A stretch of DNA of 63,961 nucleotides, counting the filler, from Vannella sp. (lineage: Eukaryota): NCBI GenBank assembly GCA_023345925.1. It is 7 parts of 7 records of this genome, joined end to end, with 100 filler letters (N's around TTAATTAATTAA, not from the genome) between each part and the next. Parts side by side here need not be neighbours in the genome. Positions count along the whole stretch, not along the records: positions 24,866 to 38,454 come from JAJQQN010000270.1; 6 more parts are not named here. One strand, given 5' to 3'. The notes under the pieces are model-generated. The model was not told the origin of the DNA. It searched no databases and was given only the letters and a program-made list of their open reading frames with translations. A program made the position numbers and the translations under genes. The stretch's first letter is position 1, and the number at the start of each line of letters is the position of its first letter. This document shows positions 5,382 through 29,881 of this stretch, one piece after another.

Positions 5382-6563
5382 GATGGTGTTGGCTGAGTTG
5401 GTTGGTGTTGCCTTGGCGGTTTGGCTGCTGGGCTACATTATCTTCCGTATCAGTGCACCGCGACAATCTACACGTCGGAAGGTACGTTGGTGCAGGAGGG
5501 CGGGGCAGTTGGGTGTGCTGATGTGCTGGAAAGATGATGATCGCTTCTTGGTCCGCCCCTAAGTGAGTGCTCTTCCTAACGAGTAGCTGAGAGTCTTACA
5601 TGAGTAGTGAGGGTAACATCTATGGTGTGCTTGTAAGGGAGAACCTCCTTTTGGTTCCTCTTGGAGTTCTGAGAAGAGTTGTAGGAGATCGACGTAACCA
5701 AAGCGAACCAGTTCATTGCTAGTGAGCGAGCAAAAGGAAAGCACGTTACTAGTGAGAATCTCGGATACTCCTTCGCTCTCTCTGATGAACTGCAGTCACT
5801 CATGTGGCCATCCGCGCCTTGGCTCTGGGAATGGCCGCTGCTCCGACTATGAACGGGAGAATCATTTGGGGAAAGTTCTTCCCTCACAAACAGACAGATA
5901 TTGGTGTTCTAGTGGCCATTGAAGGTGGAAAGGACTTGGCCAATGCAAAGATCTCAAACGCAGACAAACGTTCTTGCGCTGAGATTGGGGAAATACTTCA
6001 AGAGAAGGCGAACAAGCTTCGCCAAGGCAAGGACGCAGACTTTAAGAAGACAACCAACACTCTGAAGTATGTTCCGGTGTTCCTCCTCAAGCCACTGGTC
6101 TATTGGGTTGGATTCTTGGGCAGCAGCATTGGCTTGTCTATTCCTATGTGTGGAGTGAAAAAGTTTCCTTTTGGTAGCGCCCTTGTCACCAGTGTGGGGA
6201 TGATGGGATTGGACCGAGCATTTGTACCCTTCCCTCCTTATGCCCGTTTGCCTCTTGTCGTCATGGTTGGAGCGATTTTGGATAAGGCCGTTGTCATTGA
6301 TGGAAAAGTAATTCTTACTTTCTCTCCATTGCAAGTGTCTAATTGATTTTAGGTCGAGGTTCGCCCCATCCTAACTATGACTGCAACGCTAGATCACCGG
6401 TAGGTTTCTTTCTTTAAGTTCACGAAGCTCACAATCTCCCAGATTCGTGGACGGCTCTCAAGCTGCAGTTATGGCCAAGATGGTGCGAGATGTTGTCACA
6501 GATCCAGCTGCTTATGAGCCAACGGAGCCCTTCGTTGTGAAGGAGAAGAAGAAACAAAACTAG
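5382..6563 (+). CDS. Stand-alone 2-oxoacid dehydrogenase E2-type acyltransferase catalytic domain with N-terminal hydrophobic anchor (6 introns)
   Basis: Spliced sequence gives WSAPNEGNIYGVLEIDVT, FGSALVTSVGMMG and TATLDHRFVDG. No lipoyl domain is visible. Confidence 0.85.
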
Positions 6564-9944: not shown

Positions 9945-11027
9945 ATGGAGAGATCAGTTGTCACCGCCGGCGGGGATGCTGCATTTAACTTGGGCGTCTT
10001 CGACGTTCAGCGGGACCTGACTTTGGACGAGAATGATCAGAGGTGGTTCATCCGGTTAACTCCGGACGATGAAGAACAAAAAGCTTCTCGTCAGAAGAAG
10101 AAGGAGATAGCGGAAGGGGAAAAAGGGAGGCGACGAATCTATGAAAAGAAGCGTGACCCCAACCAGGAGTGGCTCCTATTCTCCGACTCGGAGAAATACT
10201 TCCGGGAGCGAATCCACAATCAGGAATCCAACTTCTTCTTCGTTCAAGAGCTCGGTAACGGCAACTATGAGGTCTTCTGTATCAAGGAAGAACACATCTT
10301 CAAACCCACGACCAAACCACCTAACATGCAAACGCCAGAAGAGCAGGAGATTATCGTGCGTCTCGATTCCTCTTGAGTTTGTGTTCGTCCTCACCCTTTG
10401 TTCAGGCTGAAGCCATTCGCCAGTCAGAGAAGAAGAGGATACAGAGGGCCAAACAAAGAAAAGCTGAGGAGGCTCAGGCAATACTGGAACCTGAGGCTGA
10501 GGCTGAATCAGTCGACGAACAGGAAGATGGTGAGGAAGACGGCTGCGATTACCAGGAGGAGAACGAGGACGAAGATGGCTTTACCAAGAAGTTGAAAATC
10601 AAGAAGGTATTCAACGATGGATGCACATCCTGGCCCACCCAGAGACTGACAAATGGGTGACAGGCAAAGACGATAGATGAGGACGAGACCAAAGGCGAAA
10701 AGGAAGAAGAAGCGTCGTTGCTGGGAAAGAGAGAGCGTGGAGCCTCAGCACCAGCCCCCAAAAAGGTTTGAATCAGCCGCAACAATGCGCCTTCTCTACT
10801 CACAGTTCGGCCAGGTCAAGTTAGAAGAGCCTAGGATGGATGACAGGAGCCTCCGAGACTTCCTTCGAGAGAATGGAACTGTCACCGGGAAACAGATGAG
10901 GGACCACTTCAAAAAGTTGGGGGAGAAGGCCGTCGTCCGGGCGTGGTTGCTCGAAGCCATCCCTCGGTGCACCGTCATGTTCCAAGAGAACGGGAAGATG
11001 TTTTTCCAATTGAAAGAGGATGAGTAA
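9945..11027 (+). CDS. Transcription initiation factor IIF alpha (RAP74/Tfg1)-like (3 introns)
   Basis: N-terminal NFFFVQ..GNYEVFCIKEEHIFKP..TPEEQE resembles the RAP74 dimerisation domain, followed by an acidic linker and a C-terminal winged-helix-like region. Confidence 0.65.
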
Positions 11028-11097
11028 CCTGCTCCACCTTCCACTTAATCGAATAAAGGACTCGCTCTTCTCCATTGTTCGGGATCCTTCCTGCATC

Positions 11098-14000
11098 ATG
11101 GTGGTGGGTCATCGGCTCGTCGTGGGGGGTGGAGAGGTCCGCGTTTGGGCATTTGGGGAACTTGTGAAGGTGTTGCGGGTATCTGGAGATGTGGTTCAAG
11201 TGGGTTGGAGCCACTTTGATCAGGTTTACGTGACGATCCTTCACACCGAAGGCCTTGTTCTTCACAGTCTCCAGGGGCCACAGTGGTCTCTTTCGCTCCC
11301 ATGTCTGATGGACAGCTTCTGGCCACTCCCACAGGGTATCATCTTACAACGGAACGGACAAGTCCCGACTCTGGAAGAGACGCCTTTCCTCTTCAGCTTA
11401 CTTCAGTGCCTGGAGGAAGTGCACCCGCTCTCCTTCCTCAGTCAGGCACCCTCCCGTGTGGTATTACCTCCCTCTACTTCCCAGACAAGCTTTCTCAACA
11501 GGAGCTTCTCTTTCAATGAGTCTTTCAGCTTCCTGGGAGAGAACTTGGACGTTTCTGGGCTCTTTGAGCCCGAGGACTTTATCTGCGAGCCCGTACGCCT
11601 CATCTTCTCGTCCCAAGAGGTTCCTATTGTTGTTCTTGCGGATGAACGGGCCAAGAGCATCGGAATGTATGTGGCAAGAGAGAAGCACAACCCGCTTCAT
11701 CAATGTAGCTACGAAGCTGCACAGCAGTTTGCACAGCTTCGTGCACAGTATGAAGAGGAGAAGAGAAAGTGCCAGATGATGGAGAATCTCACCAACTCCC
11801 ACTTGGACGTGTCGTTTCAGTACGAGGAGCTAATGACCTCTTTCCTTGGCGATGAATCCTTTACTCTGGTTGATGCTGAAGCTCACATCAAGGCACAACT
11901 ATACTTGGAATGGATAGCAGACTTTCCTCACCCCGGGGGAAGCTGCAGCGAGGCATTCACGAGAGTGGACCGAAAAGGGCGGATTCTTTTGCACTTGCTC
12001 TTCTCTACCGCTCAGATTCTTCAAATCTACCAAGTGTCTGGTTGCTCGTCCAAGGGGTACAGCATTCGCTTCCTTTATCAGCTTGATTCAATACTGAGCG
12101 CCACCCCATTCATCAAGTCATGTTCAGGTAATCGCACTGACCTACTTGCGTTAGACAGTCAAGGGCAGCTCCTCTACTTCTGGGATCAAATCCCTATATT
12201 TAGGAGTGACCCTCGCGCGTTATCGCGAGGACAAAAGGGATCTCCTATTGCGTTAGAGGAAGCAGCTCATAACCAAGTCACTTTAACGTGGAGTGACAAG
12301 AGTCAGTCACAGGTCCGTTTGTGCTCATTCCCTTATTCTGATCTACTTGTGGATATATTTGATGTGCTGGAAAAGTCTTTGCCAAAAGCACTTGTGGAAC
12401 AGCTTGCAATTGACACCAAACAGTGGATCACTTCGGCTTCAATGGAGCCATTTCAAGAGAGCAACAGTCCTCCCCAAGATTTTAGAGCCTTCTGTAGTGT
12501 GCTCCTTGAAACCCTCCAGATCTCTCAGCCTCCTCCTGTGGAACAACCTCAGTCAGATTGGGAATTCCTTTTATCTTCTCGGCTTTACAAGGAACATCAA
12601 AAAGCTCATGGAAAACTCGCTATGACCTCTCTCAGTGACACTTTCGCACCGGACAGGAACTTAAGCTTCCATTCGACCACAAATACTTCCCAACTGGTTC
12701 AATATCTTGAGTCCCTTCACCGCACCTTGCACTTTCTCTTTAATTCTTTCCGTTTGAATGTTCTTTGCCATTTGAATGCCTTGTATCTCGCCCGTGACTT
12801 GCTTCTTCCTCTCAGTGAGAGACTCTCTCTCCACCTCCATTCGGCCTACTATGCCACTTTTCTTGGTGAGAAATCGAATTTTGTCATCCCAACCGATGAA
12901 GGTTTGCAATTCACTTTCTCTGATGGATATGATTCATCTGTTTTTGATATCTTCGAGCTGTTGGAAGGGACTCTGCTCTCCTCCGAGCCTCTCAATATCG
13001 GAAAAGAGGATTTGATCTTACTCGGTGCGAATCCCATTACAGTTCTTCGCCAAACCTGCAGGCTTTTTGATATCCTAAGAGGAGGAGATGGTCATCTGTT
13101 CGACCTGACACCAGAGGAAAAACTCACTCTTGAGGGACCGGAATTCTCTGGGGTTGTTAGTACACATGTTAACTCTTTGCAATCAACTGGTGCGACTTTC
13201 CCAATACTTGGCAAACAGGTTCAACAGAAGAAATCGGGAGTATCACGTGAAGGAGACACCTACGAGAGAGTCCTCTTGGCGATGGTGGACGAATCGATTT
13301 GCCAAACAACTCTGGATAACTTGGTTCTTGGCGTGGCACTCCCTCTAAGACAGGCAATTTATCATTGCCGCCAAAATCCTCCTTCTACATGGCCCAAAGA
13401 GGCATTTATTCTCCTTGGGCGAGACGATCTGGCGCTCTTCTGGGACTCAATACAAAGTATCGAACACGCCACGATAGAAGTACCACACCCCCTCCAAGAA
13501 GTTAGGCCCAGTCAAGACGAAGAACTTACTGAATTTTACCGCCGTCAGATAGAAGGGACAACGTGGACGGATTCCACTACACTCCTCCGATTCAGTCGAG
13601 ATAACCGATTACTTGAAGTTTCCCGTCTTCTATCTAGTTCTGATCCCCAACTGGTCGAGATTCCTGAGAGTACTGGCACCTCAGAGCATGAAATTCAATC
13701 ACTTCAGCAGCAGCAGTTGCACCGATTGGCCATTCGGACGATGGCACGGCCTGTTGGAAGAGGAATGTTCACACTTTCAACTGTTTCTATTAGCGGGACT
13801 GAAGTGGTCCCTCTTCCTGAAGTCCAATTGAGCGGGCGAATTCCGGACTCCAATAACTTTGTCAAGCTTGTAGGGGAAGAAGGGGCACCTTTGCCCGATG
13901 ATTTTGACTCCTGGGGCCAATTTCATAATGGAGTGGCTGCAGGACTACGTATCACTCCTAACAAGAAGCTGAAAGGGCATACTTGGATTATGTTTAACAA

Positions 14001-16068
14001 ACCAAAGGCTTCATCAGATGGCCATGCAGGCTTCCTCCTCGGTTTAGGCCTGCAAGGTTACCTTAAGTCACTCAAACTGCCAAAGATCATTCAGTACTTT
14101 AAAGAGAACCATCCCCTCACCCGCATTGGGATACTCTTAGGATTATCAGTCAATCAGCGTGGTTCCATGGATGTGAATGTGGCCAAACTACTCACCGTCC
14201 ATATCCCTGCGCTTTACCCACCGTCTTCCAGTGTAGTTGAGATTCCAGCTGACGTCCAAGTGGCTGCCATGGCAAGTGTTGGTTGGCTTTATCTTCAAAG
14301 TCAGCACCGAGGGATGACAGAAATGCTCTTAGAGCAAATCTGCTTCCCTCCTCTTGATGGAAAGGATCCGCGAAGAGAGTCCTCAACACTAGCAGCGGGA
14401 CTGTCTCTTGGATTGATCACTCTTGGTAAAGGACAGAATTGTCACGGCCTTGCTGACCTTCGCATTGCTGACCGATTGATAAGATATCTCACCGGCGGGG
14501 TGAATCCTCGTCAACCAGATAAGGAGTGTGACTTGGATGGTTCTGGACTCATCATTGAAGGGAGATCAATCAATGTGGATGTGACAGGTGCCGCTGCCAC
14601 TCTGGCATACGGAATGATGTTCTTACAAACCAACGATTCGAGTGCAGCTCAGCGATTAGTTATCCCACAGACTGTTTTCCTGTTGGAATGTGTTCGCCCA
14701 GACCACCTTCTTCTTCGCCAGCTCTGTCGAAGCTTAATTGAATGGGACTCTATTGCTCCCACACAGGAGTGGATGGATAGCCAGATACCTGATGTGATCC
14801 GTACAGGTGTCCTTGAGTCAAGTCGAGTGAGCTTTGAGGACTGCGAGACGCTTCATCATTGCTATATTCATCTCCTAGCAGCCAATTGCCTGGCAATCGG
14901 GCTCAAGTTTGCCGGGACGTTCTCCCAGCTTGCGTTCTCTCTGCTCTCTGAGCAGGTGGACCTTTTGAGAGGCTTCAAGTCAAAGAAGATACAAGGACTA
15001 TCCCTACTCAACCGACAGCTCACAGAAACATGCCTTGATACCGCAGTTATTAGCCTTTCGCTTGTGATGGCAGGAAGTGGCAATCTTCAGGTGATGACGC
15101 AGATTCGGCAGCTACTAGGGCGCCGGTTAGAGAACGAAGTGACTTATGGGCATCATTCAGCCCTTCACATGGCATTGGGCTTCCTTTTCTTGGGCGGGGG
15201 AAAGTACTCTTTGAAACGAGATTCAGTCGCAGTGGCTAGTTTATTAGTTTCTCTCTATCCCATGTTCCCTGCCTCTGTCAACGATAACAGGTACTATCTC
15301 CAAGCTCTCCGACACTTTTATGTGGTTGCCTGCACCCCTCGCTGCTTCGAGCTTCGGGACGTCGACACGAAAGCGCCCTGCCTTGCACCACTGAAAGTCA
15401 CAATGTTAGAGACTGCAGAGCACGCACGCTCTGTCATCCACATGGTGGCTCCTTGCCTCCTTCCAGAGTATCATCTTATCGAATCAATAACGGTGGACAG
15501 TCCTCGCTACTTGCAGACGACCTTGGATATGACATTGCCAGTCCACCAACAAATGCTCCATAACCGGACTCCCATCTACATCAAGCGGCGATTAGGTCAC
15601 CTCTCTTATGAAGATGACCCACAGGGAATGCGCAGTATCTTTGCGCGGGCCTTCCCAAAGACCTTCCAATCTCAACCCTCCGCTGAGACAGAGCGCCAAC
15701 TACAAGTCAGTAAGACCCAATTCATCCAGGCATTCAGCGGCGATGCCAAGATAATGGAGTTTGTGCAGAGATTCTGTTCCCACTCCAACTCTGTTTCCGC
15801 CCCAGCGGCAGAACATGCCGCCTTCTGCACTGCTGTAGTCTATCATTGTCTGGGGAATGGAATACCTGAGATGATTCTCTTCTACCTTCAACTGGCCCAA
15901 TGGCTCGATTCTCCTGGCGACATTCCGCCCGTTACAGTGAGCAACATCCGCCTTATTCTCTCCTTCACGCGCTCGCCTCTCTTCCACAACCTTCCAGCCA
16001 AAAGCCAAGTCCTTTTGGACACTTTCCTCGAAAGCCTCGAATCCCGCTGCGAGGTGCTCCTCTTCTAA
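11098..16068 (+). CDS. APC1: Anaphase-promoting complex subunit 1, apparently intronless
   Basis: WGQFHNGVAAGL, HAGFLLGLGLQG, PC repeats and DNRYYLQALRHFYV. The ORF is open from 11020, but ATG 11098 lies downstream of the AATAAA at 11052. Confidence 0.95.
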   Translation: MVVGHRLVVGGGEVRVWAFGELVKVLRVSGDVVQVGWSHFDQVYVTILHTEGLVLHSLQGPQWSLSLPCLMDSFWPLPQGIILQRNGQVPTLEETPFLFSLLQCLEEVHPLSFLSQAPSRVVLPPSTSQTSFLNRSFSFNESFSFLGENLDVSGLFEPEDFICEPVRLIFSSQEVPIVVLADERAKSIGMYVAREKHNPLHQCSYEAAQQFAQLRAQYEEEKRKCQMMENLTNSHLDVSFQYEELMTSFLGDESFTLVDAEAHIKAQLYLEWIADFPHPGGSCSEAFTRVDRKGRILLHLLFSTAQILQIYQVSGCSSKGYSIRFLYQLDSILSATPFIKSCSGNRTDLLALDSQGQLLYFWDQIPIFRSDPRALSRGQKGSPIALEEAAHNQVTLTWSDKSQSQVRLCSFPYSDLLVDIFDVLEKSLPKALVEQLAIDTKQWITSASMEPFQESNSPPQDFRAFCSVLLETLQISQPPPVEQPQSDWEFLLSSRLYKEHQKAHGKLAMTSLSDTFAPDRNLSFHSTTNTSQLVQYLESLHRTLHFLFNSFRLNVLCHLNALYLARDLLLPLSERLSLHLHSAYYATFLGEKSNFVIPTDEGLQFTFSDGYDSSVFDIFELLEGTLLSSEPLNIGKEDLILLGANPITVLRQTCRLFDILRGGDGHLFDLTPEEKLTLEGPEFSGVVSTHVNSLQSTGATFPILGKQVQQKKSGVSREGDTYERVLLAMVDESICQTTLDNLVLGVALPLRQAIYHCRQNPPSTWPKEAFILLGRDDLALFWDSIQSIEHATIEVPHPLQEVRPSQDEELTEFYRRQIEGTTWTDSTTLLRFSRDNRLLEVSRLLSSSDPQLVEIPESTGTSEHEIQSLQQQQLHRLAIRTMARPVGRGMFTLSTVSISGTEVVPLPEVQLSGRIPDSNNFVKLVGEEGAPLPDDFDSWGQFHNGVAAGLRITPNKKLKGHTWIMFNKPKASSDGHAGFLLGLGLQGYLKSLKLPKIIQYFKENHPLTRIGILLGLSVNQRGSMDVNVAKLLTVHIPALYPPSSSVVEIPADVQVAAMASVGWLYLQSQHRGMTEMLLEQICFPPLDGKDPRRESSTLAAGLSLGLITLGKGQNCHGLADLRIADRLIRYLTGGVNPRQPDKECDLDGSGLIIEGRSINVDVTGAAATLAYGMMFLQTNDSSAAQRLVIPQTVFLLECVRPDHLLLRQLCRSLIEWDSIAPTQEWMDSQIPDVIRTGVLESSRVSFEDCETLHHCYIHLLAANCLAIGLKFAGTFSQLAFSLLSEQVDLLRGFKSKKIQGLSLLNRQLTETCLDTAVISLSLVMAGSGNLQVMTQIRQLLGRRLENEVTYGHHSALHMALGFLFLGGGKYSLKRDSVAVASLLVSLYPMFPASVNDNRYYLQALRHFYVVACTPRCFELRDVDTKAPCLAPLKVTMLETAEHARSVIHMVAPCLLPEYHLIESITVDSPRYLQTTLDMTLPVHQQMLHNRTPIYIKRRLGHLSYEDDPQGMRSIFARAFPKTFQSQPSAETERQLQVSKTQFIQAFSGDAKIMEFVQRFCSHSNSVSAPAAEHAAFCTAVVYHCLGNGIPEMILFYLQLAQWLDSPGDIPPVTVSNIRLILSFTRSPLFHNLPAKSQVLLDTFLESLESRCEVLLF

Positions 16069-27133: not shown

Positions 27134-29831
27134 TTACCGTCGTCTCTTCCACATCCAAAAGGCAGAGCCACCGAGAAGCAAGCAGAGCAAAAGGGAGAGC
27201 ATTTGCCTTGGTCTCCTTCCAAGAAGTAATTGGTGAAGGGAAAGAGAAGACTTTGCAGGGGGTTGAAACTCGCCTCTTCTCTCCTTATCAGAAAGGGTCG
27301 TCTCGGGTCTTCTTGTAAACTTTAAACCTTGGCTCCCAGAGAGCTCCGGCCGCTCCATTTTGACTTTTTCGTGCTGGATTGGTCTTTTTGTGTCTTCAAA
27401 GTCTTCAGGCCCTTCCTCCTCTTCTTCCTCTTCTTCTTCGTCTTCTTCTTCTTCTGCTTGCCCACCTGAAGGGTTTGAAGCAGCTCTTTGGGCGAGAATG
27501 GCGGCAATCTCTGAGTAATTCTTTGTGTATACCAGGTTCTTGCTCTTGAGGAGCAAGGAAAGTATGAGTAAAGAGGAGAGGTGAGAGATCACTCACTTCA
27601 TCATCGAGAATGACTTGCGCGTTCGATCGTAAAAGTTCCACAACAATTTGTGTGTGGCCTTGAATGCATGCCACAGAAGCAGGAGTGTTCTATGCGCACA
27701 GATGAGAAAGGAAATCCTCTCTTGGGACTGAAAGCCACTCACACCAAAGTGGTCAGAGAGTGTGGGGTCGACTCTGGTGTCGCTCAGTAACTCTTGAACA
27801 ACACTCAGCCGTCCATTGAAAGAGGCTATAAATAGGGGAGTTTGCTATTCCTTGTTAGACACATCCCGACTCAACCACTAGAGGATTACCCCGTAGTTAT
27901 TCTATGGTATTCTGTCAGTAAGTGACCTGAAACCACCATTCTTCAACGTACAGGGCGGTTTGGATCTATTTGCGGAGTTTGAAGGTAAAGTTGAACAATC
28001 TCTGATCTTCCCTCTGCTGAGGCAAGGTATAAAGGTGTGTCCTAAGAAAATGAGATCCAAGAGACTTTCTGGATTCGCTAAACGCACTCCCGCGTGATTC
28101 TTCCCCTTCTGTTAGACTTTTCTCCCCAGACAGGTTACAAAACTTACTCCTAGCTGTGCGCCAAACCGCTCATCGCTTAATAACTCGCGAACAATGTCGG
28201 TGAAGCCAGCTTTGGAGGGAAAATGGAGAGGAGTGTGCTGCTGTTGCGTGAGCCAGGCACTCCAGCGATTGATTTTTGATTGGAAAACCTACTCCTTTGT
28301 CATCAGCCTCCACCATACTACACCTTCCATCTCGCAATAGAGTTCGGACAACATCAATTGAACCTGACGCACACGCCGCTGAAAAGACACCCATCTTTGG
28401 CTGCTTAGTATCCCTGCTTCCTCTCCGACTCAGGAAATTACCCCTCGATAGTTCTACGCCTTCCATTAGATCCAAAGCCAATGGGAGAAGAGAAACTCAC
28501 TCTCCCTCGGAAGAGATCCACTCGTGGGTCTCCCAGGAGCTCCTGAACGACTGCTGTGTGCTTCTTATAGCACGCTACCCAAAGAGGAGTTTGCTAAAAT
28601 ATGTCTTAGTGGGTAGAAGGATGCCCAAGGAGAGCCCTACCCCTGCTTTTGTCTTCGGGCAGTGTCAGAGTGAGTTTCTCTCCATTCCCTTTCACCTACA
28701 GTTTGGTTGGGGTTTGTTCTTTCATCAGAAAGCAATTGGCGCAGCACTTGCAAGTTGCCTTTCTTGCAAACCTCATAAACTGGATTGCACTGGCCAATGC
28801 AATGCACAATTTGTTAGAAAGCGCCCTTTCTGTGAGATTGGCTGGCCTACTGGGAAGCAAGGATCCACCCTAGAGTCCTTAAGGAGCACTTCGACTACCT
28901 CAAAATGTCCATTATCACAGGCTGCAAAGAGCGGAGAGATCTACGTCAAGTTGACCTTGTCAGAGAGAATGACGGAATCCCATGACAATGGGATTGGCTC
29001 ACTCCCTCTTCATTCTGCAACAGAGGAGAGATCAGTCCATCTCCTTTGAAGGCACTAGGGGGAGCTTACGCATTCAGCAGGGTCGATTCTACCGTCTTGA
29101 AGGAGCACTTTGACCATTTTGGTTTGCCCTTCGCTGGAGGCGATGAAGAGAGGAGAGTTCTTCAAGGAGGAGGTGGTTAGTAAAGCGATGCCCTTCCTTG
29201 TAAGATGGCTGGTTACCCCAAAGATGTCCTAAAGGGAGGGAAGGTCACTGTAAGTCGTCCCTTCCAGTCTCTTGGGCACCCAACACGTACAGGAACAGTG
29301 GGATCTACTCTTTCGTCTCGGAGAAGAGCACGGACGATCCCCAAGTGGCCGTTCTCTGCTGCTGTCAGAAGAGGAGTGCTCTGCCATGTAGGTGAGTCGC
29401 TAGACCCATTTCTGCCTTGTGACTGACCCCATTCTCTAGCTATGATGTGTTGTCAGCTTCTGAACCCTATGAACCTTCTCAGACCCACCTCAGCCTTCAT
29501 AACATCCACGCGGCGATCTTGCATCATCTCCATGACGACATCAAAGTGTCCTAGCGAGCAAGCAATGTAAAAGGGAGTCTCCTAAGTCCTCTGTGAATAC
29601 CCTTGCATCAACCTAGAGCCATCCAGTGCCCCCAGACACCTTACTCCACATCCACTCTACCCAACTGAGTAAGTTCTCGATCCCCACAGGCCCTCCAGCC
29701 ACCACACAGCGGTGATAGCTCGTTGGACCTACCCGAAGATTCGCAAAGACACTCTCGTTCGCCAAGAGGCCCCGAACACGCTCCAAATCCCCCATCTCGC
29801 AAGCCTGCTGCAGGAGCAGTGCATCGCTCAT
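27134..29831 (-). CDS. Ankyrin-repeat protein (12 repeats, 21 exons including eight 12-nt microexons) with acidic tract and C-terminal tail anchor
   Basis: Exons ETPFYIAC, STPLLTAA, NSPLFIAS, ISPLFAAC, CNPVYEVC, QTPLWVAC, MGVFSAAC, HTPLHFPS, DTPLYLAS, QTPLFIAS and NTPASVAC, each bounded by AG and GT. Ends MLSLLLCLLLGGSAFWMWKRRR. Confidence 0.88.
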
Positions 29832-29881
29832 GGCCCCCAAACAAGTGAAACGAAGGGAAAGAAGGGTGCTTTGGTGATTGG

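What the first reader, a model, noticed from the sequence alone, without database searches (positions are those of the whole stretch)
27134..29831. Ankyrin gene with the variable beta-turn of each repeat on its own 12-nt microexon and all introns in phase 0
Seen in sequence: 90-93-nt exons encoding the helix-pair core alternate with exactly 12-nt AG/GT-bounded exons. These are SGCG (29645-29656), LENG (29428-29439), DIFG (29217-29228), NEEG (29003-29014), TKAG (28641-28652), NYRG (28442-28453), NHAG (28088-28099) and NNYG (27890-27901). All 20 introns fall between codons. Established: D-x-x-G before TPLH is the ankyrin beta-turn, and its x positions are ligand-contact residues randomised in DARPins. 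Inference: any exon skip keeps frame, so splicing could re-pair turns with cores and change repeat number, giving a repertoire of membrane-anchored binders (acidic spacer plus C-terminal TM-KRRR). The ORF track misses this gene almost entirely.
Basis: partly seen in the sequence, partly recalled or inferred. Interest (0 to 1): 0.88.

Follow-up and report, generated by a model that had tools for sequence, protein, structure and literature searches.

The report
Ankyrin gene with 12-base turn exons
A gene of an unidentified single-celled eukaryote carries eight 12-base segments between intact splice sites, each spelling the tight turn of one ankyrin repeat; this is likely an old exon-pair duplication read as one fixed protein rather than a splice-based diversity generator, though no RNA has tested it.

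Summary
The layout is real. A minus-strand model of 21 exons and 20 GT-AG introns (45-76 nt, all phase 0) translates without a stop to about 543 aa. It gives an N-cap, 11 ankyrin cores, an acidic spacer and a hydrophobic tail ending KRRR. The eight 12-nt exons lie where stated. The joint shuffle probability is about 1e-15, and including them improves alignment to 242 of 264 ankyrin proteins.

'Each repeat' is overstated. Only 8 of 11 junctions have the microexon, two turns are fused to the core exon, and one junction has no turn.

The diversification reading has no support. The repeats are old (33% identity at 4-fold sites), no second gene with this layout turned up, and a skip would need introns of 106-293 nt. 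No RNA or whole genome was available, so it is not excluded.

Best reading: a constitutively spliced, likely tail-anchored ankyrin scaffold built by duplication of a two-exon module. This scan noted ankyrin-loop microexons before in other genomes (SOWAH), but not this repeating layout.

The parts
29733..29831 (-). Exon 1, 99 nt: ATG and N-terminal capping half-repeat
   Evidence: no Pfam match on its own
29645..29656 (-). Turn microexon 1, 12 nt (SGCG); least well supported of the eight because this gap has many alternative AG/GT pairs
   Evidence: shuffle fraction 0.092
29489..29581 (-). Core exon 1, 93 nt
29428..29439 (-). Turn microexon 2 (LENG); an in-frame downstream acceptor would give 6 nt (NG)
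29291..29380 (-). Core exon 2, 90 nt
29217..29228 (-). Turn microexon 3 (DIFG)
29070..29159 (-). Core exon 3, 90 nt
29003..29014 (-). Turn microexon 4 (NEEG)
28851..28940 (-). Core exon 4, 90 nt
28790..28850 (-). 61-nt intron joining cores 4 and 5 with no turn exon; resembles the intron at 29160-29216
28700..28789 (-). Core exon 5, 90 nt, with a divergent first helix
28641..28652 (-). Turn microexon 5 (TKAG)
28501..28593 (-). Core exon 6, 93 nt
28442..28453 (-). Turn microexon 6 (NYRG)
28293..28394 (-). Core exon 7, 102 nt, with the next turn (DDKG) fused to its end
28148..28240 (-). Core exon 8, 93 nt, or 90 nt from the second AG of a tandem acceptor at 28237, which fits the ankyrin register
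28088..28099 (-). Turn microexon 7 (NHAG)
27952..28041 (-). Core exon 9, 90 nt
27890..27901 (-). Turn microexon 8 (NNYG)
27743..27844 (-). Core exon 10, 102 nt, with the next turn (DHFG) fused to its end
27597..27689 (-). Core exon 11, 93 nt
27134..27544 (-). Last exon, 136 codons plus stop: likely capping helix, poly-Glu spacer, basic low-complexity linker, hydrophobic segment (best 19-residue Kyte-Doolittle mean 1.57) and KRRR end
   Evidence: no homologue or family

Best explanation
This is one ankyrin-repeat gene with 20 short phase-0 introns and eight 12-base turn segments, likely built long ago by tandem duplication of a two-exon module (turn exon, intron, core exon, intron) and likely spliced the same way every time into one predicted tail-anchored scaffold protein of about 543 residues. 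Shown: the exon-intron layout, the open frame, the ankyrin identity and the age of the repeats. Inferred: each 45-76-nt intron is recognised across its own length, so a 12-nt exon needs no special help and is included by default. The module was copied about ten times. The core-to-turn intron is absent from two copies, and one copy lost its turn exon in an out-of-register event that phase 0 made harmless. The hydrophobic end followed by KRRR would anchor the protein in an organelle membrane, with about 12 ankyrin units in the cytosol binding fixed partners.
For: Two intron positions recur in register along the array. Including the microexons gives the better BLASTP score against 107 of 120 and 135 of 144 ankyrin proteins and restores the 34-residue period seen in the closest matches P0166, P0239 and P0214. 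The repeats are old: 18-55% aa identity and 104 of 315 four-fold sites identical, and the mean intron-intron similarity (18.8) equals that of unrelated intron-like sequences (19.0). All 20 introns score alike in a splice-signal model (15-22 bits), with no weak sites marking optional exons. Intron retention exceeded exon skipping in all but one of 65 eukaryotes, and fungi and amoebozoans have low skipping (PMC6142364, passages). Repeat genes formed by local duplication of intron/exon modules are a described class (Street et al. 2006 as summarised in PMC4585158, passage).
Against: No transcript was seen, so constitutive inclusion is inferred. In Drosophila 283 of 411 internal microexons were alternatively spliced (PMC8042270, passage), though that is an animal. 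In Ectocarpus, Klebsormidium and Bigelowiella skipping went with short exons and short introns (PMC6142364, passage). The junction without a turn suggests that a turn-less repeat is tolerated. Only one 64-kb window could be searched for paralogues. The hydrophobic tail is of moderate strength (1.57) and no topology predictor was run. The lineage is not established.
Confidence: 0.68

Rival explanations
1. Splice-based diversification: the cell skips turn exons, or turn-plus-core pairs, to make binders with different repeat numbers and re-paired turns.
For: Every internal exon is a multiple of three in phase 0. Turn positions 2 and 3 are among the most variable. Natural RVDP-type repeats with short loops exist: among 126 scored repeats, 98 had a 31-residue-type spacing and 18 the 34-35-residue type. 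Precedents are the truffle nank microexons (PMC4986451, passages) and brown-algal ROCO repeat exons (PMC11378527, passages).
Against: Skips need introns of 106-151 or 243-293 nt, where this gene's introns are 45-76 nt. A lone turn skip gives a spacing found in 1 of 126 natural RVDP repeats. There are no alternative cassettes and no weak splice sites. Frame preservation follows from duplicating one phase-0 module, so it is not evidence of selection for skipping.
Confidence: 0.12
2. [quoted passage not shown]
For: The turn-less junction and the resemblance of intron 28790-28850 to intron 29160-29216 (score 41; 0 of 1521 null pairs reached it) look like the trace of an unequal exchange. Core-to-turn introns are slightly more alike among themselves (mean z 0.98) than across classes (0.41).
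Against: After correction for 190 pairs the intron match may be chance (Gumbel estimate 0.13). The exons that follow the two introns are not especially alike (25% aa, 42% nt). Third codon positions are near saturation. There is no other ankyrin exon in the window, and 0 of 16 metagenome pattern hits had the layout.
Confidence: 0.12
3. The introns were gained one by one into an existing intronless ankyrin array at two favoured sites, so the layout is not a record of module duplication.
For: The closest proteins (at most 39% identity) include bacterial and unnamed metagenomic ankyrins. The introns are largely unalignable. The core-to-turn intron is precisely absent in two repeats.
Against: It needs about 19 separate insertions at two exact registers, all phase 0, while the codons before the core-to-turn intron share no sequence motif and the neighbouring gene has mixed phases.
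Confidence: 0.06
4. The 12-nt segments are not exons; the gaps are single introns of 106-151 nt and the protein has 30-residue repeats.
For: No RNA confirms them. Two short-loop ankyrin proteins (P0035, P0015) align as well to the turn-less model.
Against: Shuffle product about 1e-15. An invariant Gly sits at the ankyrin turn position in 10 of 10 turns, two of them inside ordinary exons. Each long gap has two branch-like motifs. The inclusive model aligns better in 242 of 264 comparisons.
Confidence: 0.02

Closest known systems
Repeat-protein genes formed by local duplication of intron/exon modules (Street et al. 2006, seen only as summarised in PMC4585158 and PMC3995336, passages)
   Same: Introns recur at fixed repeat positions and keep frame; the array grew by copying exon plus intron.
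   Different: That class has exons equal to whole repeats or multiples. Here each repeat is cut twice, so one exon is a 12-nt turn and the other a 90-93-nt core.
SOWAH ankyrin genes of animals (Drosophila sowah microexons of 3, 3, 6, 12 and 27 nt, PMC8042270 supplementary Table 4 rows)
   Same: Microexons, one of 12 nt, in an ankyrin-repeat gene. Earlier scan notes place them in the ankyrin loops (their claim, not checked here).
   Different: A few irregular microexons in one or two loops, against one uniform 12-nt exon at 8 of 11 junctions. No sign of orthology.
Tuber melanosporum nank (NACHT-ankyrin) genes (Iotti et al. 2012, not seen; cited from PMC4986451, passages)
   Same: An ankyrin-containing gene with many in-frame microexons and a proposed splice-based diversification.
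   Different: Codon-sized exons, reported alternative splicing, an expanded family and a NACHT domain. Here the exons are 12 nt, and there is no NACHT domain, no known family and no RNA evidence.
Brown-algal ROCO (LRR) and NB-ARC-TPR genes (PMC3341825 abstract; PMC11378527 passages)
   Same: Ligand-binding repeats on same-phase exons that could be shuffled or skipped.
   Different: One 72-nt phase-2 exon per LRR, gene families with rapid birth and death, diversifying selection and observed isoforms. Here there are two exons per repeat, phase 0, saturated repeats and no signalling domain.
Ankyrin repeat family (Pfam PF00023), RVDP-type 34-residue repeats
   Same: All 11 core exons match PF00023; DARPins and ankyrin-1/2 are the best solved relatives.
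   Different: No orthologue was found: best identities are 30-39%, and the tail exon has no relative.

Membership tests
Ankyrin repeat protein (PF00023) | Tandem 33-34-residue repeats with G-x-T-P-L-x-x-A-x-x-x-G consensus | tested here: met
Ankyrin repeat protein (PF00023) | Stacked helix-pair fold with beta-hairpin turns | not tested
   the spliced protein was not folded; inferred from sequence matches
Module-duplication repeat genes (Street class 2) | Introns at fixed repeat positions, same phase | tested here: met
Module-duplication repeat genes (Street class 2) | Exon lengths are whole multiples of the repeat unit | tested here: not met
   exons are 12 and 90-93 nt; only their sum (and the two 102-nt exons) equals a repeat
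Splice-diversified microexon genes (Tuber nank type) | Codon-sized microexon arrays | tested here: not met
   exons are 12 nt and alternate with core exons
Splice-diversified microexon genes (Tuber nank type) | NACHT domain | tested here: not met
   the model holds only cap, repeats and tail; no Pfam match in exon 1 or the last exon
Splice-diversified microexon genes (Tuber nank type) | Observed alternative splicing | not testable with these tools
   no RNA run was listed
Exon-shuffling receptor families (brown-algal ROCO type) | Expanded family of paralogues with the same layout | tested here: inconclusive
   none in the window or in pattern scans; no whole genome held
Exon-shuffling receptor families (brown-algal ROCO type) | Recent exchange or diversifying selection among repeat exons | tested here: inconclusive
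   synonymous sites near saturation, so dN/dS is not informative; one intron pair is suggestive only
Tail-anchored membrane protein | Single hydrophobic segment at the extreme C-terminus, short basic tail, no signal peptide (criteria recalled) | tested here: inconclusive
   19-residue mean hydropathy 1.57 followed by KRRR; N-terminus judged by eye; no topology predictor available

The most novel reading that the evidence does not exclude
A protist makes a repertoire of ankyrin binders from one gene, a natural DARPin library, by skipping turn microexons and turn-core pairs so that hairpin tips are re-paired with helix cores and repeat number changes; the products sit on an organelle membrane as intracellular sensors of viruses or endosymbionts.
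Probability: 0.12. Interest if true: 0.8.

Novelty: new variant of a known kind. Interest (0 to 1): 0.42.

Why it matters
As it stands, it is a clean example of exon boundaries tracking sub-repeat structure: the four-residue turn and the helix pair lie on separate phase-0 exons along a whole array. It also shows gene structure that ORF-based annotation of microbial eukaryotes would miss. I found no paper describing this two-exon ankyrin module (searches; open-access library only, and Street 2006 and Iotti 2012 themselves were not seen). If RNA showed in-register skipping, it would be a splice-built binder repertoire in a single-celled eukaryote, testable by one long-read experiment.

Tried and rejected
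No whole genome is held, so the paralogue scan covered only the 64-kb window, where no other ankyrin exon was found. No RNA holder was listed; this is no evidence either way, and no reads could be laid.

The search for related loci could not build patterns from the exon alignments. A DNA pattern for an Asn-first turn exon plus intron plus core start matched 3 places in the window, 0 in viral contigs (the Asp-first version also 0) and 16 in metagenome contigs. None of the 16 had the layout: 14 showed no ankyrin match and 2 were continuous ankyrin reading frames. The pattern is narrow (3 of this gene's own 8 microexons), so the blank is weak.

One core exon with 6 intron codons found nothing. 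The tail exon found no longer relative, no Pfam family and no Atlas hit; all three are weak negatives. Profile searches returned generic ankyrins, not an orthologue. The lineage could not be fixed: 2 of 10 window proteins are in the collection, neither with an organism name.

Considered and dropped. A hidden microexon in the 61-nt intron: there is no AG/GT pair with room for two introns. A fusion with the upstream urea transporter: that gene closes with its own stop and an open 468-479-aa model. An FFAT-like ER-tether motif after the acidic tract: poor match to the recalled consensus, not tested further. The spliced protein was not folded or searched remotely, so its fold and full-length relatives remain open.

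Full report
Setting. The window is a compact eukaryotic genome stretch of about 49% GC, with short introns and genes such as APC1, an SH3-RhoGEF, a RhoGAP, an RGS protein and a urea transporter. An amoeboid protist is my inference from this gene content; it is not established, since no genome is held and look-ups gave no organism names.

Observation. The eight 12-nt segments are at the stated coordinates, between AG and GT. A model of 21 exons has 20 GT-AG introns of 45-76 nt, all between codons. With the last acceptor at 27544 it translates to 542-543 residues with one terminal stop. All 11 core exons match Pfam Ank at E<=1. Gaps between cores are 106-151 nt where a microexon lies and 52-61 nt elsewhere, and shuffles give a joint chance of about 1e-15 for the eight (pattern chosen after the fact). 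A splice-signal scan without protein information ranked all eight above the best shuffled score (trained on these introns). With the microexons the protein aligned better to 107 of 120 and 135 of 144 ankyrin proteins. The microexons are therefore very probably coding, although no RNA run was listed to confirm it.

Corrections. The layout holds at 8 of 11 junctions. Two turns are fused to the preceding core in 102-nt exons, and the junction between cores 4 and 5 has no turn. The first turn residue is Asp in only 1 of 8 microexons; the Gly is invariant. The run of phase-0 introns reflects two repeat positions copied along the array, not 20 separate events; the adjacent gene has phases 0,1,0,2,2.

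History of the array. Cores are 18-55% identical, with 104 of 315 four-fold sites identical and third positions near saturation. Introns are on average no more alike than unrelated intron-like sequences. One exception: the intron at the turn-less junction (28790-28850) aligns with the intron after turn 3 (29160-29216), with a score that none of 1521 null pairs reached. It would mean that a turn exon and its upstream intron were lost, or left out of a duplication, in an exchange between two phase-0 donors. A Gumbel estimate corrected for 190 pairs gives 0.13, and the exons that follow the two introns are not especially alike, so this is suggestive only.

Protein. An N-terminal cap, 11 repeats of mostly 34 residues of the RVDP type, a poly-Glu spacer and a terminal hydrophobic stretch (19-residue mean 1.57) followed by KRRR. 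Tail anchoring with the repeats in the cytosol is inferred from recalled rules for tail-anchored proteins. No orthologue was found: best identities are 30-39% to generic ankyrins, including a Legionella and a Morchella protein, and the tail has no relative.

Diversification. Every internal skip keeps frame, but this follows from copying one phase-0 module. Skipping one microexon needs an intron of 106-151 nt, and an in-register pair one of 243-293 nt. All splice sites are of similar strength. A lone turn skip gives a spacing seen in 1 of 126 natural RVDP repeats, whereas 98 have a spacing one residue longer and 15 the spacing of the full model. The microexon carries positions 2 and 3, but positions 5, 13, 14, 32 and 33 are about as variable and lie in the cores. 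The DARPin randomised positions 2, 3, 5, 13, 14 and 33 are recalled; the passages I read (PMC8683736, PMC8229355) place them on the concave surface without numbering. Across 65 eukaryotes retention exceeded skipping in all but one, with low skipping in fungi and amoebozoans (PMC6142364, passages). On the other side, that paper names species where skipping goes with short introns, and 283 of 411 internal Drosophila microexons were alternative (PMC8042270, passage). No paralogue was found in the window, in viral contigs or among 16 metagenome pattern hits, but these searches are narrow.

Comparison. It works like the module-duplication class of repeat genes (Street et al. 2006, seen only through passages in PMC4585158 and PMC3995336), with the difference that each repeat is cut twice. 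Microexons in an ankyrin gene are annotated for Drosophila sowah (five supplementary rows). Splice-diversified microexons are reported for truffle nank genes (passages in PMC4986451; the original paper was not seen), and repeat-per-exon shuffling for brown-algal ROCO genes (PMC3341825 abstract; PMC11378527 passages). It is a member of none of these on tested features. Seven literature searches (listings, open-access library only) showed no paper on a repeated turn-exon/core-exon ankyrin module. Earlier scan notes cover SOWAH and one-codon arrays in other genomes, and none matches this DNA or layout.

Verdict. A real and unusual gene structure, best read as an old two-exon module duplication that is spliced constitutively (0.68). 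Splice-based diversification stays possible (0.12) and needs RNA. New variant of a known kind; interest 0.42.

Noticed in passing
window 29832-29881: Only 50 nt separate the stop of the urea-transporter gene (Pfam UT) from the ATG of the ankyrin gene on the same strand, so the promoter or UTRs must overlap the neighbour.
   Followed up: partly
window 28790-28850 and 29160-29216: Two introns of the array align well while the flanking exons are saturated; either chance, local gene conversion or the trace of the event that removed one turn.
   Followed up: partly
window 28237-28240, 29433-29439, 28099-28105: In-frame tandem acceptors at core exon 8 (3 nt), turn 2 (6 nt) and turn 7 (6 nt) could give small loop-length variants without any exon skipping.
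   Followed up: no
window 29160-29216: This 57-nt intron is in frame and stop-free, so retention would insert 19 residues into a hairpin (read from the sequence).
   Followed up: no
window 40951-42753 (-): One ORF joins an RGS domain to a myotubularin-like domain.
   Followed up: no
window 43124-45868 (-): A 915-codon open frame with no Pfam match.
   Followed up: no
window 11020-16068 (+): APC1 is a single 1682-codon open frame, so intron density varies sharply within this window.
   Followed up: no
window 5608-5632 (+) and 46698-46719 (+): The best small-exon candidates outside the ankyrin gene (25 and 22 nt); no exon of 15 nt or less elsewhere beat the shuffled maximum.
   Followed up: no
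P0015, P0035, P0034, P0036: RVDP-type ankyrin repeats occur in two natural classes, a 31-residue form without the G-x-T-P-L turn and a 34-35-residue form with it.
   Followed up: partly
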